A stretch of 64,000 nt of DNA from a virus: IMG/VR virus record IMGVR_UViG_3300006310_000773, one strand, 5' to 3'. How positions within the stretch are numbered: position 1 is the first letter of the stretch; the number at the start of each line of letters is the position of its first letter. The notes beneath the pieces were generated by a model that worked only from the letters and a program-made list of their open reading frames with translations, was not told the DNA's origin and did not search any database. Shown here one piece after another: positions 46,450-53,822 of this stretch. A program made the translations under genes and the position numbers.

Positions 46450-46523
46450 TGGAGCGAGTAAGAGGAATCGAACCCCTATCATCAGGTTGGAAACCTGAGG
46501 TACTACCTTTGTACGATACTCGC
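46450..46523 (-). tRNA. tRNA-Gly(TCC)
   Basis: GCGAGTA acceptor, TCAGG-TTTCCAA-CCTGA anticodon arm, GTTCGATTC T-loop, encoded CCA. Confidence 0.93.
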
Positions 46524-47549: not shown

Positions 47550-47622
47550 TGGAGCGAATGCATGGAATTGCACCATGATCTCAAGGTTGGAGCCCTGTAT
47601 TCTGCTTTTGAACTACATTCGC
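47550..47622 (-). tRNA. Atypical tRNA (Gly-like body, irregular anticodon loop)
   Basis: GCGAATG/CATTCGC acceptor with TCCA end; intact D and T stems; anticodon arm CAGGG-CTCCAA-CCTTG; T-loop TGCAATT. Confidence 0.7.
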
Positions 47623-47639
47623 ATTTATCATAATATACC

Positions 47640-47668
47640 ATTATACCATTATAATTATATATTGTCAA
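47640..47668 (-). promoter_or_regulatory. Sigma70-type promoter upstream of the atypical tRNA
   Basis: TTGACA-17 nt-TATAAT with an extended TG. Confidence 0.7.
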
Positions 47669-47677
47669 GTGAAATAT

Positions 47678-47887
47678 TTATTTTAATATTTCTATAGTGA
47701 GTATTATCGCAATCCATAATAATAAAAAATTACATATTAATAATTCTATTGCTAGAATTGTATGATACCATACCCAATTTGTTTCATATTTTTTATCTCT
47801 TTCAAGTTCAACTTTAGTCTTCCCTTCTTGTAATCGTGGCATCCAAAGTCGTGCAAATTTTTCTTTGGTTTTATTGATAATCCCCAA
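47678..47887 (-). CDS. Small membrane protein
   Basis: C-terminal hydrophobic helix. Confidence 0.6.
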   Translation of the reverse strand: MGIINKTKEKFARLWMPRLQEGKTKVELERDKKYETNWVWYHTILAIELLICNFLLLWIAIILTIEILK

Positions 47888-47895
47888 TTTACCCC

Positions 47896-48216
47896 CTACA
47901 TTTCTGGCCCTGTTGCATTATCACTATCTGAACATCCTTGTGAATTATACCTGCTTTCTCTCCATGTATGTTTGCCTTCATTATATCTCAACCATTTCTG
48001 ATTTCCGTTTGGATCACAAAATTGTACATATATTTTACCATTTATAGTAAATAATCCTGCTCTACTGAAACCTTCCACTTGTGGTAATGTCTCTGTCGCT
48101 CGTAACCATAATGGAGCACTATCAGGTGGAGCACAAGAAGTAAGTAACAAAATGGTAACAACTGTCAATATTACTTGGATTAAATTAAGGATAATTAAAT
48201 TTAAAATTGTTTTCAT
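47896..48216 (-). CDS. Putative lipoprotein
   Basis: Signal peptide with LTSC lipobox. Confidence 0.65.
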   Translation of the reverse strand: MKTILNLIILNLIQVILTVVTILLLTSCAPPDSAPLWLRATETLPQVEGFSRAGLFTINGKIYVQFCDPNGNQKWLRYNEGKHTWRESRYNSQGCSDSDNATGPEM

Positions 48217-49190
48217 GTTTCATCTTCTATTAACTTAGCCTCAAATTCTCTTAAACGCCTAAAAACACTCATTAATTCAATAATGGTAGGCCACGCTTTT
48301 AAAAGATATTGCATTGATCCTTCTACTCTACCAAATGCTCTTATTATTTGTTGCATTACACCTAGAGTCATCACTCCAGCAACTATGGCTGGTGCTAGGA
48401 ATACATAAGCTGATAATACGTTTGCTTGTAAATATGCCATTCGACCAACATTAAAATATAGATAACGTATATAACTTAAAAAATGAATTTTACGAACATC
48501 ATCAAAGAATTCTTCTATTTTCTTTGGTCTAACAGTTCCATCATCTTCTGCAATAACAAGTATTTTTCTATATGCCGCTTCTTTTGCTTGTATATCATAT
48601 TCTATACCAACTAAACGCAATATGTACCCTAATCCAATTAAAAAGGCAGTACCACCTAATGTCCAAAGTAACGCACCTGTAATCAATCCATATTCCCAAT
48701 CACCAAAAAAGAATATTGGAATACCCATTGACAATCCAAATAATATAGGAATAAACTGAACTAAAACCATAACTGATTCAATTAAAGCTGTTCCCAAACC
48801 TTCCATTATACGAGTAAATTTAATTGTATCTTCTTGAACTCTTTGCGATGCACCTTCTATTGTTCTGGCTTTGTCATACACACTATGATACCATTCAACC
48901 ATTGCTGTACGCCATCTAAACAAATAGTGAGCTGTAAAATAACTTATTACAACATAGAGTCCAACATATATTCCTGCTAATGTAATAAATGAGAATAAAC
49001 TTGCAAAATATTCTTCTATTGTTACTGCATTTGGTGTAGCAAGTGCTTTTTGAATCATGTCATAAAAGACACCAAACCATTCATTTATTTTTACATCAAT
49101 CTTTACTTGAACCCAAAGTGATCCTAAAATAATCATTGAACCAAGCCAAGACCATAACCACCATTTTTTGTTTGTAAAAAATCTAAACAT
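48213..49190 (-). CDS. sbmA: SbmA/BacA-like peptide transporter
   Basis: INEWFGVFYDMIQKAL, FRWRTAM, IEGASQRVQEDT, EAAYRKILV and WPTIIELMSVFRRLREFE. Confidence 0.92.
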   Translation of the reverse strand: MFRFFTNKKWWLWSWLGSMIILGSLWVQVKIDVKINEWFGVFYDMIQKALATPNAVTIEEYFASLFSFITLAGIYVGLYVVISYFTAHYLFRWRTAMVEWYHSVYDKARTIEGASQRVQEDTIKFTRIMEGLGTALIESVMVLVQFIPILFGLSMGIPIFFFGDWEYGLITGALLWTLGGTAFLIGLGYILRLVGIEYDIQAKEAAYRKILVIAEDDGTVRPKKIEEFFDDVRKIHFLSYIRYLYFNVGRMAYLQANVLSAYVFLAPAIVAGVMTLGVMQQIIRAFGRVEGSMQYLLKAWPTIIELMSVFRRLREFEAKLIEDET

Positions 49191-49199
49191 AATATTCCT

Positions 49200-49424
49200 T
49201 TAATCGTTTGTTAAAGTTGGTTCGCCTCTATCGTAAAATTTCCAGCCTGTTCTACACGGCTTTTGTTTTCTTTTACCCCAAGCCTTATCTGTATATACAC
49301 CATCTCCGTGTTGATCGTATTCACACTCTGCAAAAAATGGTGTCATACCTCTTGGCCAATTATTTGTGTTGCTTGAACAACTACTCAAAAATAACATTAC
49401 AAAAACCAGTAATGCTATTCTCAT
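49200..49424 (-). CDS. Small lipoprotein
   Basis: LSSC lipobox and two further Cys. Confidence 0.65.
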   Translation of the reverse strand: MRIALLVFVMLFLSSCSSNTNNWPRGMTPFFAECEYDQHGDGVYTDKAWGKRKQKPCRTGWKFYDRGEPTLTND

Positions 49425-49657
49425 CCCCAGGGCCTCCGTTCTAAATCTAGATGTGGTGCTTTTTCATCCACACATTGTCTATAAGGTGTAACATTATGTC
49501 GATTAGACCAAATAGTACCTTTCTTATGTCCGCTTCTAGATCCATCGGTGTGTTCCACCCAATGACCAAAACAACCGGCCTTAACTTGTCTTACTGTTTC
49601 ACATCCTACAACCATCCATGTCGCCATCACTATAAAAATTAATAATAGCATTTTCAC
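49421..49657 (-). CDS. Small lipoprotein, paralog A
   Basis: VVGC lipobox; GCFGHWV...PYRQCVDE. Confidence 0.7.
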   Translation of the reverse strand: MKMLLLIFIVMATWMVVGCETVRQVKAGCFGHWVEHTDGSRSGHKKGTIWSNRHNVTPYRQCVDEKAPHLDLERRPWG

Positions 49658-49866
49658 AAATATCTCCGTTCTTTTAAATTGTTACCTTTGTTATTCTCAT
49701 CTACACATTGATAATAAGGCAAATGGGCATCTTTAAGAAGAGTTCGTGTTCCTCTATGATGTCCAGGTCCCTTAACCCAATGTCCATAACAACCTCCTGT
49801 ACTTATTCCACATCCAACAACTATCCATGTCGCCATCATTACGAAAAGTAATAATAGCTTATTCAT
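49654..49866 (-). CDS. Small lipoprotein, paralog B
   Basis: VVGC lipobox; GCYGHWV...PYYQCVDE. Confidence 0.7.
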   Translation of the reverse strand: MNKLLLLFVMMATWIVVGCGISTGGCYGHWVKGPGHHRGTRTLLKDAHLPYYQCVDENNKGNNLKERRYL

Positions 49867-50360
49867 TCACGCTCCTCTGGATTCTTTTGTTGACTATCAG
49901 TTTTATAGTCCCATTCATAGAAACTAATATCTCCACCAATTGTGATTCCACCATCTTGTTCTTTTTTACCTTCTTCGTCTCCCGGCCCCTCTTCTATTTC
50001 TTCACGTAAAACCATGAATTTTCCTTCTCCCTCTGATTTCTCTTTCACACCCTCTAACGCTTTATGTGTTTCTCTTGAATACACCAGCTGGTAAGATATA
50101 GGAATTTTTTCTTTATATACAATCCACAAATAAATCCAATTTGGTTCATCAATATAATGTTTAAGATACAATCCTTCTTTTGGTTTTTCAACTCTTGGAT
50201 ACCCCAATATTGAGGTATATGTTACATAAGTTGATGCAACCAAAACGAGAAAAAGTGGAATAAACCAAACCAAAAACTTTGGACTCTTTCTTTCTTCAAT
50301 CAATACCCATAGACATATGACTGCGAAAACAACTAATCCTAATATTAAACTCACTATCAT
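49863..50360 (-). CDS. Two-TM membrane protein
   Basis: Two N-terminal helices followed by LGYP and IYLW. Confidence 0.7.
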   Translation of the reverse strand: MIVSLILGLVVFAVICLWVLIEERKSPKFLVWFIPLFLVLVASTYVTYTSILGYPRVEKPKEGLYLKHYIDEPNWIYLWIVYKEKIPISYQLVYSRETHKALEGVKEKSEGEGKFMVLREEIEEGPGDEEGKKEQDGGITIGGDISFYEWDYKTDSQQKNPEERE

Positions 50361-51043
50361 CTTGCTGGATCTCCATCTTCATATGCGGCAGCGCCTGTTG
50401 GTGGAGCTGTATAGTTTCCCAATGCCTGCATCGGAGTCACAAACTTTTTCTTTTCAAATGTAAATGGTGGAAGAATTTTTCCGTCTTCATCTAATCTAAA
50501 TCTCAAAAAAGTTTCTTCTTGTCCTCTATGATTAAATTGTTTCTCTCCTACCCACAGTATTGAATACGGATTTACTTTGTGTAATTCAACCCTTACCGTT
50601 ATATTTGGTTTTGGAGGATTGACCTTATCATAACTTCTTAGTGAATAATAATGTCCATTGACAACATATTCACCCTTAATGATTCCACGAATAGTTACTA
50701 CTTCCCTATTAATTTTTACAGTTGAAATTGATCCATCCGCATTAACTACAGTATCATTCATTGCTCCCAAATCATCTTTATCCAAATGCATAAAGTTATG
50801 ATTATGATATCTGAAACTAACTTGTTTGCTCGTGGGATCTTCTACATAAAGATCAATGTCTCCACTAGCATCATGATCCCATTCCATCACAACAACAAAC
50901 TCAGCTCTTCTATTGAAATCTTCTTTTTTCGCTTCAGGTTTTATTAGAAGAAACGCGATAATGAAAAGAAACGCAAATCCAACAAGAATGTTAAAAAGCA
51001 GATCTGTAAAACCAATAGTGGATTTATATTTTTCATTATTCAT
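50357..51043 (-). CDS. Single-TM MotB/ExbD-like partner with a periplasmic domain
   Basis: FTDLLFNILVGF helix with a membrane Asp; WDHDASGDIDLYVEDP and LDKDDLG. Confidence 0.65.
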   Translation of the reverse strand: MNNEKYKSTIGFTDLLFNILVGFAFLFIIAFLLIKPEAKKEDFNRRAEFVVVMEWDHDASGDIDLYVEDPTSKQVSFRYHNHNFMHLDKDDLGAMNDTVVNADGSISTVKINREVVTIRGIIKGEYVVNGHYYSLRSYDKVNPPKPNITVRVELHKVNPYSILWVGEKQFNHRGQEETFLRFRLDEDGKILPPFTFEKKKFVTPMQALGNYTAPPTGAAAYEDGDPAR

Positions 51044-51494
51044 TTAGCGCTACTTCAAGATTCACTAATTGAACCTTGATGAGAAGTGAACATACCAATC
51101 CAACCAGAGTTGTCCAAAGGGCAGTACTCATCCCTATTGCCATGTCTGATAATGCTTGTTGCAGTGTCGATGCATTTGATACATCAACATTTTCAAATGC
51201 CGTCCCTAGCATTATTAGAAAACCTGTAACAGTTCCCACCATTCCAAGTGCAAGACATGATTCAGATATGAACCACCCTACATCACTTTTTTGATCATAA
51301 TCTTGTTGTACTCCAACCTTATAAGTTTTTGCACCTATCCAAACTGAAGTACATACAAAAATAGAAAGTATAAAAAAGCTTAAACGTGTTACATCAGCTT
51401 CATATAATTCTTTATGTATATTAAAATAAAAACATGTACATAATCCTAATGCTGTAACACAAACTATTAACCACCATTTTAGTAAAGATGACAT
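51036..51494 (-). CDS. MotA/TolQ/ExbB proton channel family protein
   Basis: LGMVGTVTGFLIML and GMSTALWTTLVGL. Confidence 0.88.
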   Translation of the reverse strand: MSSLLKWWLIVCVTALGLCTCFYFNIHKELYEADVTRLSFFILSIFVCTSVWIGAKTYKVGVQQDYDQKSDVGWFISESCLALGMVGTVTGFLIMLGTAFENVDVSNASTLQQALSDMAIGMSTALWTTLVGLVCSLLIKVQLVNLEVALNE

Positions 51495-51594
51495 CTAACT
51501 CCTTTTTTATATGTCCATATTGATTCATGATTATGTCGCCTGATTCGGCGAAGCGCTATTCTTTAAGAATATTCCATTTCATCATATATTTATG

Positions 51595-53499: not shown

Positions 53500-53576
53500 T
53501 GGTAGGCGAGGTTGGAATTGAACCAACGACCTCCACCGTATCAGAGTGGCATTCTAACCTGCTGAACTACTCGCCT
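53500..53576 (-). tRNA. tRNA-Ile(GAT)
   Basis: CCACT-CTGATAC-GGTGG anticodon arm; CCA encoded. Confidence 0.93.
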
Positions 53577-53577
53577 A

Positions 53578-53656
53578 TGGCGGCTCCAATGGGATTTGAA
53601 CCCATGTTACAGGATTGACAATCCTGCGTCCTAGGCCGAAACTAGACGATGGAGCC
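53578..53656 (-). tRNA. tRNA-Asp(GTC)
   Basis: CAGGA-TTGTCAA-TCCTG anticodon arm; CCA encoded. Confidence 0.93.
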
Positions 53657-53658
53657 GT

Positions 53659-53744
53659 TGGTGGGAAGGGATGGAGTCGAACCATCACAGTCGTTAGACG
53701 GCAGATTTACAGTCTGTTGAGCTCCCCTTTTGCACAGCCTTCCC
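53659..53744 (-). tRNA. tRNA-Tyr(GTA)
   Basis: ACAGA-CTGTAAA-TCTGC anticodon arm, long variable arm, CCA encoded. Confidence 0.9.
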
Positions 53745-53746
53745 AT

Positions 53747-53822
53747 TGGCTCCCCTGGCCGGACTCGAACCAGCGACCCGATGATTAACAGTCATCTGCT
53801 CTACCAACTGAGCTACAGAGGA
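53747..53822 (-). tRNA. tRNA-Asn(GTT)
   Basis: TCCTCTGTAGCTCAGTTGGTAGAGC start and GATGA-CTGTTAA-TCATC anticodon arm. Confidence 0.95.

What the first reader, a model, noticed from the sequence alone, without database searches (positions are those of the whole stretch)
47678..51594. Eight-gene envelope operon: ExbB/MotA-like motor pair, Cys lipoproteins and an SbmA peptide importer
Seen: a tightly coupled run of MotA/TolQ/ExbB-like, single-TM Asp partner, two-TM protein, three small lipoproteins, SbmA/BacA, a lipoprotein and a TM protein. Every product is envelope-targeted. The run is preceded by a late-like CATAAATA (51587-51594) and a TCGCC/GGCGA hairpin. Known: ExbB/ExbD-type complexes transduce ion-motive force, and SbmA/BacA are proton-coupled peptide importers. 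Inference: a phage-encoded, PMF-driven envelope system for peptide uptake, signalling between infected cells, superinfection exclusion or lysis timing. I do not know of such a system being characterised.
Basis: partly seen in the sequence, partly recalled or inferred. Interest (0 to 1): 0.75.

Follow-up and report, generated by a model that had tools for sequence, protein, structure and literature searches.

The report
Phage mini-motor trio beside SbmA importer
An uncultured ocean T4-like phage transcribes nine envelope genes as one tight late run, but comparison with relatives shows a patchwork of separately exchanged cassettes (an undescribed miniature MotA-type ion-motor trio, small lipoproteins, and a host-derived SbmA importer), not one fixed machine.

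Summary
Window 47678-51594 (minus strand) carries nine (not eight) translationally coupled envelope genes behind a CATAAATA late-type box.

The products are:
- a 152-aa MotA/ExbB-family protein;
- a single-TM partner with an invariant Asp and a TerD-like periplasmic sandwich;
- a 2-TM protein;
- four lipoproteins;
- a 325-aa SbmA-core transporter that keeps all five proton-relay glutamates;
- a tail-anchored peptide.

The "single PMF-driven uptake system" reading is only partly supported.
- The trio always travels as a unit, in 80 phage loci and about 79 proteobacterial loci. Bacteria never place SbmA beside it, and 42 of 63 evaluable phage trios lack it.
- SbmA stands alone in at least 54 phage loci and lies 45 kb from the trio in one contig.
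- SbmA is 81-82% identical to a chromosomal gene of streamlined marine Alphaproteobacteria that have no trio and no TonB-dependent receptors.
- A 97%-identical contig breaks collinearity exactly at the p165/lp70 junction.

Even so, two SbmA types only 38% identical to each other sit downstream of trios, in unrelated phage backbones, so the pairing in phages is not random.

This scan has already reported the trio, and trio plus SbmA, on other DNA. I found no paper describing either in phages.

The parts
51587..51594 (-). CATAAATA late-promoter-like box, 92 nt before the motA-like ATG
   Evidence: Read. ATAAATA is enriched in intergenic DNA upstream of genes. A GATAAATA box precedes the trio in L003, L004, L008 and L085.
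51536..51551 (-). 5-bp hairpin TCGCC-gaatca-GGCGA in the leader
   Evidence: Read. Not conserved in relatives, so its significance is doubtful.
51036..51494 (-). Mini MotA/ExbB/TolQ-family channel protein, 152 aa, four hydrophobic segments, no large cytoplasmic loop
   Evidence: PF01618 at 29.6 bits against a cut-off of 22.9. A profile of homologues hits MotA 8gqy at E 1.8e-4, PomA and TolQ. G84, G87, G91, T128 and T129 are near-invariant in 68 phage and 77 bacterial sequences; T88 is near-invariant in phage copies only, being T or K in bacteria.
50357..51043 (-). Stator-partner-like protein, 228 aa: N-terminal TM helix with Asp14 (FTDLLFN), then a TerD-like beta-sandwich with a conserved acidic cluster
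   Evidence: D14 is invariant in 66 phage and 77 bacterial distinct sequences, and D62, D64, D90, D91 and E114 are near-invariant. AlphaFold model has pLDDT 74.7. VIA-align gives Z 9.1 to TerD homologue 2qz7_B and Z 8.6 to TerD 2kxt.
49863..50360 (-). Third trio member, 165 aa: two TM helices, an LG(Y/W)P motif, a small beta domain plus helix, and an acidic tail
   Evidence: Always follows the partner gene. Alignment A2. Model has pLDDT 80.7. No convincing fold match.
49654..49866 (-). Small lipoprotein lp70 (lipobox VVGC), paralogue of lp78
   Evidence: Translation. A 97% collinear block with L001 starts exactly at its ATG.
49421..49657 (-). Small lipoprotein lp78 (lipobox VVGC)
   Evidence: Translation. 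The block lp78-lp74-SbmA occurs without the trio in L002 and L006.
49200..49424 (-). Small lipoprotein lp74 (lipobox LSSC)
   Evidence: Translation. Present in 13 related loci.
48213..49190 (-). SbmA/BacA-family core transporter (TM1-6, no TM0), 325 aa, host-derived
   Evidence: PF05992 at E 6e-132. NCBIfam NF009036 at 412 bits against a cut-off of 385. Aligns to E. coli SbmA residues 78-396. The glutamate ladder and gate residues are kept, with Y285 replaced by Ile. 81-82% identical to chromosomal genes of streamlined Alphaproteobacteria.
47896..48216 (-). Lipoprotein lp106 (lipobox LTSC)
   Evidence: Translation. Homologues lie before, after or without SbmA near trios: L188, L189, L192, L193.
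47678..47887 (-). 69-aa C-terminally anchored membrane peptide (TTG start)
   Evidence: Hydropathy. Homologue elsewhere in L092. The evidence that this is a real gene is weak.

Best explanation
The run is one late, translationally coupled transcript of a marine T4-like (pelagimyophage-like) phage. It strings together independently exchangeable envelope cassettes.

(1) A three-gene mini MotA-type unit. By analogy with MotAB, ExbBD and TolQR, the 4-TM channel protein and the Asp-bearing partner probably form an ion-driven 5:2 complex. Its output would be periplasmic: a TerD-like, probably Ca-binding sandwich together with the 2-TM third protein. Its target is unknown. This step is inferred.

(2) A host-derived SbmA-core gene. 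It most likely works alone as a homodimeric proton-coupled importer of peptides or other hydrophilic solutes into the infected cell, that is, as an auxiliary uptake gene. The residues needed are shown to be present; the cargo is inferred.

(3) Small Cys-containing lipoproteins of unknown role, possibly outer-membrane receptor masking.

Co-location gives shared late expression and perhaps an optional synergy, but neither module needs the other.
For: Coupling and late box.

The trio is a unit. It is intact in all 80 phage loci wherever the contig allows and in about 75-78 of 80 genome loci of Alpha-, Beta- and Gammaproteobacteria. In bacteria it is followed by a 235-aa lipoprotein (43 loci) or a VWA+FHA protein (15 loci).

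Separability:
- No SbmA lies within 6 kb of any true bacterial trio.
- 42 of 63 evaluable phage trios have no SbmA downstream.
- At least 54 phage SbmA loci sit between tail genes without a trio.
- In G010 the two are 45 kb apart.
- Rhizobium phages have the trio but no SbmA.

Mosaic breakpoints:
- L001 is 97.2% identical from window 49865 down to 44001 and unrelated upstream.
- L002 and L006 share only 49656-48225.
- L013 shares only the SbmA ORF, 49195-48230.
- L192 and L193 are 99.96% identical up to 22 nt before a type-2 SbmA gene, then diverge.

Different ages: SbmA dS is 0.11-0.66 while the flanking trio genes mostly give dS above 1, lowest 0.95, in the same pairs.

Origin: SbmA clusters (support 100) with genes on 380-1410 kb contigs of 1.3-2.1 Mb alphaproteobacterial genomes; the sampled flanks have 25-34% GC. 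Those genomes lack the trio.

SbmA competence: E193, E203, E276, E287, E378, R190, R280, K281, Y116, Y368 and D288 are kept in 86-88 of 88 copies (residue roles from PMC8442886).
Against: Adjacency in phages is far commoner than random placement would give: 20 of 48 evaluable distinct trios. It involves two SbmA types only 38% identical to each other. It also occurs in backbones as unrelated as a 328-kb jumbo phage with no detectable gp32, with different genes in between (ClpS, lipoproteins, HAD-like). That pattern suggests selection for the pairing. No experiment exists for any of these proteins. The 5:2 assembly, the Ca binding and the cargo are all inferred. Most phage contigs are fragments, so absences are weak evidence.
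Confidence: 0.65

Rival explanations
1. One integrated PMF-driven import route. The trio, with lipoproteins as outer partners, would move or release cargo across the outer membrane or periplasm, and SbmA would carry it across the inner membrane. The analogy is TonB/ExbBD-FhuA plus SbmA in microcin J25 uptake.
For: Recurrent same-strand adjacency in phages. Two divergent SbmA types both lie downstream of trios. The pairing is present in unrelated backbones. Bacterial trios are followed by a lipoprotein, so a lipoprotein partner is plausible.
Against: SbmA occurs alone in most phage loci and in its donor genomes, which lack the trio. The trio occurs alone in bacteria and in two thirds of evaluable phage loci. 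Breakpoints fall exactly between the modules. There is no TonB-like or TonB-dependent receptor gene in the run, and none was found in the five donor-like genomes. E. coli SbmA works without a dedicated motor (PMC8442886).
Confidence: 0.17
2. The trio and lipoproteins form a late envelope-disruption or lysis-timing device. The motor would sense or dissipate the PMF, and the lipoproteins would act like spanins. SbmA would be an unrelated passenger.
For: Late-type promoter, all-membrane products, and small outer-membrane-type lipoproteins. An earlier scan note (e1-5854803, unchecked here) reports lysozyme fusions to one partner in other phages.
Against: The trio is chromosomal in many Proteobacteria, next to VWA+FHA or lipoprotein genes. 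The motor-type residues and acidic cluster are invariant, which argues for a regulated machine rather than a holin. Many phage trios have no lipoprotein gene next to them.
Confidence: 0.1
3. A superinfection-exclusion or anti-phage module of the Zorya (ZorAB) kind, with the lipoproteins masking receptors.
For: Weak ZorA hits to the MotA core: PADLOC E 3e-5 and NCBIfam ZorA_4 at 19 bits. The tandem diversified small lipoproteins are reminiscent of receptor blockers; this comparison rests on my own knowledge of T5 Llp and was not tested.
Against: The hits cover only the shared channel core. The score is 19 bits against a cut-off of 500. There is no long ZorA tail, no ZorB-type partner and no ZorC/D/E genes, and no PADLOC hit for the other eight proteins.
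Confidence: 0.06

Closest known systems
E. coli SbmA / S. meliloti BacA (SLiPT proton-driven importers; PDB 7p34, 9g3d; PMC8442886)
   Same: The full core TM1-6 aligns to SbmA residues 78-396 at E 1.5e-84. All five ladder glutamates and R190, R280, K281, Y116, Y368 and D288 are kept.
   Different: It lacks the TM0a/0b domain, and the cytoplasmic-gate Tyr285 is Ile. It belongs to the short NCBIfam PRK12369 form (412 bits against a cut-off of 385), is phage-borne, and its cargo is unknown.
ExbB-ExbD-TonB and TolQ-TolR-TolA(-Pal) inner-membrane motors
   Same: A MotA/ExbB-family channel protein, then a single-TM partner with an essential-type Asp at the cytoplasmic end of its helix, then a third membrane protein, in one coupled operon. 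In bacteria a lipoprotein gene follows, as Pal does in Tol-Pal.
   Different: The channel protein is only 152 aa, with four TM segments and no cytoplasmic domain. The partner carries a TerD-like sandwich, not an ExbD/TolR fold. The third protein has two TM helices and no TonB or TolA features. By sequence the nearest solved chains are MotA and PomA.
MotAB / PomAB flagellar stator units (PDB 8gqy, 8bri, 6ysf)
   Same: Best sequence matches of the channel profile (E 1.8e-4 to 0.04) and a four-TM topology.
   Different: No FliG-contacting cytoplasmic loop and no OmpA-like peptidoglycan-binding domain on the partner.
TerD / YfaP (DUF2135)-type calcium-binding beta-sandwiches
   Same: Fold match to TerD at Z 9.1 and 8.6 over 122 residues. 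A conserved Asp-rich cluster is present. One family member is named YfaP/DUF2135 by JGI.
   Different: No Pfam TerD hit, and DUF2135 reaches only E 0.043 in one of 14 members. Here the domain is tethered to a stator-type TM helix.

Membership tests
SbmA/BacA (Pfam PF05992; SLiPT) | Family profile match over the whole core domain | tested here: met
   PF05992 at E 6e-132, profile positions 1-314 of 315. Match to 7p34 at E 1.5e-84.
SbmA/BacA (SLiPT) | Glutamate ladder E193, E203, E276, E287 and E378 for proton relay | tested here: met
   E120, E130, E204, E215 and E305 in the window protein, kept in 87-88 of 88 phage copies. Residue roles from PMC8442886.
SbmA/BacA (SLiPT) | N-terminal TM0 domain (TM0a/0b) of E. 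coli SbmA and BacA | tested here: not met
   The alignment starts at SbmA residue 78. The donor-like bacterial genes are equally short, 329-333 aa.
SbmA/BacA (SLiPT) | Homodimeric, proton-driven import of peptides or bleomycin | not testable with these tools
   Needs a transport or sensitivity assay.
NCBIfam NF009036 (PRK12369 putative transporter, short SbmA form) | Score above the curated equivalog cut-off | tested here: met
   412 bits against a cut-off of 385. Type-2 phage copies score 461-469 bits.
MotA/ExbB/TolQ 5:2 ion motors | Channel subunit matching PF01618 with conserved TM Gly and Thr residues | tested here: met
   29.6 bits against a cut-off of 22.9. T128 and T129 are near-invariant.
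MotA/ExbB/TolQ 5:2 ion motors | Partner with a single TM helix bearing the protonatable Asp | tested here: met
   D14 is invariant in 143 distinct sequences.
MotA/ExbB/TolQ 5:2 ion motors | 5:2 stoichiometry and ion-driven rotation | not testable with these tools
   No multimer modelling is available. Needs cryo-EM or biochemistry.
Ton system (ExbB-ExbD-TonB) | ExbD-fold periplasmic domain, a TonB partner, and TonB-dependent receptors to energise | tested here: not met
   The partner domain is TerD-like. The third protein shows no TonB-like match. PF00593 was found in none of the five donor-like genomes while the controls rang.
Flagellar stator (MotAB) | Large cytoplasmic loop on MotA and an OmpA-like domain on MotB | tested here: not met
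   The TM2-TM3 loop is about 16 aa, and no OmpA hit was found.
Zorya ZorAB | Long ZorA with a tail, a ZorB partner, and accessory ZorC/D/E genes | tested here: not met
   ZorA_4 scores 19 bits against a cut-off of 500. PADLOC hits cover only the channel core.
TerD family | TerD profile match and Ca-binding motif | tested here: inconclusive
   Fold Z of 9.1 and 8.6 but no Pfam TerD hit. The acidic cluster is conserved.

The most novel reading that the evidence does not exclude
In ocean phages the mini MotA-type trio and SbmA form an optional two-step, PMF-powered import route. The trio, through its TerD-like arm and a lipoprotein, would open or energise an outer-envelope step, and SbmA would complete uptake. 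This would give infected SAR11-like cells, which lack TonB-dependent receptors, a phage-made uptake pathway.
Probability: 0.15. Interest if true: 0.85.

Novelty: new variant of a known kind. Interest (0 to 1): 0.6.

Why it matters
The trio looks like an undescribed branch of the MotA/ExbB/TolQ motor family, with a new kind of periplasmic output. The partner-protein family has about 2,100 clusters at 50% identity, and the trio lies in hundreds of phage contigs and in many Proteobacteria. Its job is unknown, so it is a tractable target for structure and genetics.

The SbmA gene is a very mobile, host-derived auxiliary gene found in at least 162 IMG/VR contigs. It implies that phages of streamlined ocean bacteria alter what infected cells take up. 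That bears on dissolved-organic-matter cycling and on how SbmA-type transporters work without the TM0 domain.

The precise cassette breakpoints also show how T4-like phages shuffle single genes at gene boundaries.

Tried and rejected
- PHROGs gave nothing for eight of the nine proteins.
- Megablast of the region against GenBank phages found nothing.
- The SbmA hits in 'Acinetobacter phage MD-2021a' sit among bacterial genes (a YaaJ transporter, threonine dehydratase, PepO), so I discounted them.
- The nearest held record, G001, does not cover the locus.
I used genome contigs instead.
- Foldseek and VIA-align gave no convincing match for the third protein: best Z 6.7 on the helical hairpin, about 5 for an OB-like core.
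- DUF2135 and TerD membership could not be shown by Pfam.
- lp106 against the bacterial fourth-gene lipoprotein showed only a weak similarity around the lipobox.
- The leader hairpin is not conserved.
- Literature searches for a phage SbmA or a phage MotA/ExbB trio found nothing relevant. The pelagimyophage survey PMC7029224 mentions neither, nor does the SbmA distribution paper PMC12003926 mention phages.
- The names of the donor-like genomes are withheld, so calling them SAR11-like is my inference from genome size, GC content and flanking genes.
Full report
**What the window is.** The window has 28-41% GC and is coded almost entirely on the minus strand. It carries T4-type baseplate wedge, hub and tail genes and a gp32 homologue. 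The closest cultured relatives of its gp6 are Pelagibacter phage HTVC008M (39% identity) and the Melnitz and Mosig myophages. Its own assembly is not held.

**The observation.** Nine minus-strand ORFs fill 47678-51494, with junctions of -8, -4, -4, -4, -4, +9, -4 and +8 nt.
- Upstream lie CATAAATA (51587-51594), a 5-bp hairpin (51536-51551) and an AAGGAG ribosome-binding site.
- The octamer count is not above chance. However, ATAAATA on this strand is concentrated in intergenic DNA before genes, including baseplate genes (9 of 19 sites in the 15% that is intergenic).
- A GATAAATA box also precedes the trio in four relatives with otherwise unrelated upstream DNA. The hairpin is not conserved there.
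- The scan found no terminator-like site on the minus strand inside the run. A perfect sigma-70-type promoter follows its end.

**The products.**
- Protein 1 (152 aa) passes the Pfam MotA_ExbB cut-off and has four hydrophobic segments. A profile of its homologues finds MotA, PomA and TolQ chains in the PDB, at E 1.8e-4 to 0.04.
- Protein 2 (228 aa) has one TM helix with Asp14 in FTDLLFN. That Asp is invariant in 66 phage and 77 bacterial distinct sequences.
- The periplasmic part of protein 2 folds as a beta-sandwich (pLDDT 74.7). Its best matches are TerD proteins, at Z 9.1 and 8.6. D62, D64, D90, D91 and E114 are near-invariant.
- Pfam does not place protein 2 in TerD or DUF2135.
- Protein 3 (165 aa) has two TM helices and a small beta-plus-helix domain with no convincing structural relative.
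- Four products carry lipoboxes.
- The 325-aa protein is an SbmA/BacA core (PF05992 at E 6e-132; NF009036 at 412 bits against a cut-off of 385). It aligns to E. coli SbmA residues 78-396, so it has TM1-6 but not TM0 (domain names from PMC8442886).
- All five ladder glutamates and most gate residues are kept in 86-88 of 88 phage copies. Tyr285 is replaced by Ile.

**The trio is a unit of its own.**
- In IMG/VR, 272 stretches encode relatives of protein 2. In the 80 loci kept, the three genes are always together wherever the contig allows.
- The trio is also present in Rhizobium phage P10VF, genes 191-193.
- In one-genome-per-species contigs, 312 stretches match. The 80 kept come from Alpha-, Beta- and Gammaproteobacteria, on contigs up to 5.8 Mb, again as a trio.
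- In bacteria the trio is followed by a roughly 235-aa lipoprotein in 43 loci or a VWA+FHA protein in 15 loci.
- Protein 2 has 2,119 cluster representatives at E up to 1e-3.
- Neither Pfam nor NCBIfam names proteins 2 and 3.

**SbmA is a separate, host-derived, very mobile gene.**
- 162 IMG/VR stretches encode close relatives.
- About 54 loci, whose SbmA is 81-83% identical to the window's, place it between tail-sheath-stabiliser and structural genes with no trio within 8 kb. Five contigs of 71-222 kb from this clade have no trio at all.
- In G010 a 95%-identical SbmA lies behind purine-synthesis-type genes, 45 kb from that contig's trio.
- Among 401 alphaproteobacterial genomes, five small ones (1.3-2.1 Mb) carry a 329-333-aa gene that is 73-82% identical. 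For the three examined, it sits on contigs of 380 kb to 1.4 Mb, with 25-34% GC in the sampled flanks and housekeeping-looking neighbours that I read as MetG, transaldolase and a glycine-betaine transporter.
- In the tree these five genes join the phage type-1 clade with support 100, unresolved against the two phage subclades.
- Those five genomes lack the trio and have no TonB-dependent receptor match, while the controls rang. They do have ordinary MotA/ExbB-family genes.
- I read them as SAR11-like. This is an inference, because the genome names are withheld.

**Mosaic structure.**
- L001 is 97.2% identical in DNA to the window from 49865, the lp70 ATG, down to 44001. Upstream it carries unrelated ORFs, which I read as a glycosyltransferase-like gene and a lipase-like lipoprotein, in place of the trio.
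- L002 and L006 share only lp78-lp74-SbmA (49656-48225), in other contexts.
- L013 and L008 share only the SbmA ORF at 92-96%, while the L008 trio is 68-74% identical.
- Synonymous divergence of SbmA is 0.11-0.66. For the flanking trio genes in the same pairs it is mostly above 1, lowest 0.95, so close to saturation.
- L192 and L193 are 99.96% identical up to 22 nt before a type-2 SbmA gene and unrelated after it.

**Why the link is not dismissed.**
- On the protein-2 tree, 20 of 48 evaluable distinct phage trios have SbmA within about 3 kb downstream, and the state needs at least six changes.
- Linked type-1 SbmA forms one clade (support 99). That clade spans T4-like phages and a 328-kb jumbo phage with terminal repeats that has no detectable gp32 and only a 26% gp6 fragment.
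- The intervening genes differ: three lipoproteins here, ClpS in the jumbo group, none in others.
- A second SbmA type, 38% identical and grouping with a Limnohabitans short form, also lies downstream of trios in L092 and L192.
- This is more than chance placement. It is compatible with co-regulation of late membrane proteins, with an insertion hot spot, or with an optional functional synergy.

**Verdict.** The genes are real and correctly identified. The run is best read as co-expressed but separable modules. The single-machine model keeps roughly a one-in-six chance.

**Earlier scan reports.** This scan had already described the trio, and trio plus SbmA, on other DNA (e1-5854803, e1-5390327, e1-3261129, e1-5363386, e1-5996632, e1-5324549). 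My independent tests agree with those reports. They add the donor lineage of SbmA, the exact breakpoints, the dS contrast and the bacterial fourth genes.

**Literature.** I found no paper on either module in phages.

Noticed in passing
window 47640-47668 (-) and 47550-47622 (-): A perfect TTGACA-17-TATAAT promoter with a TG extension lies directly after the run. It precedes a tRNA-like gene that ARAGORN calls with a two-base 'cc' anticodon.
   Followed up: no
window 53500-53822 (-): Tight cluster of four tRNA genes (Ile-GAT, Asp-GTC, Tyr-GTA, Asn-GTT). Further tRNAs lie at 46450 (Gly-TCC) and 57808 (Val-TAC).
   Followed up: no
L017:7662-7985 (328-kb jumbo phage contig): A ClpS-like 107-aa gene sits between the trio and SbmA, and a DUF59/SufT-like gene and an aldehyde dehydrogenase follow. 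I identified these genes from their sequences by eye. The arrangement is the same as in earlier scan notes.
   Followed up: partly
L105:7153-8625 and 14 similar gammaproteobacterial loci: In these bacteria the trio is followed by a 490-aa protein with VWA and FHA domains. This hints that the bacterial system is tied to phospho-threonine signalling.
   Followed up: partly
L100 and L101 (MAGs labelled Flavobacteriales and Legionellales): These short MAG contigs carry phage-type short motA-like genes. L100 also has SbmA and lp106, and looks like phage DNA binned into a bacterial MAG.
   Followed up: no
L001:924-1715: In a 97%-identical relative, a 263-aa lipoprotein that I read as lipase-like and a glycosyltransferase-like ORF sit just upstream of lp70, where the window has the trio.
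   Followed up: partly
window 49421-49866: lp70 and lp78 are tandem paralogues sharing MATW(I/M)VVGC, GC(Y/F)GHWV and QCVDE but differing between the Cys residues. Copy number varies from 0 to 3 among relatives.
   Followed up: partly
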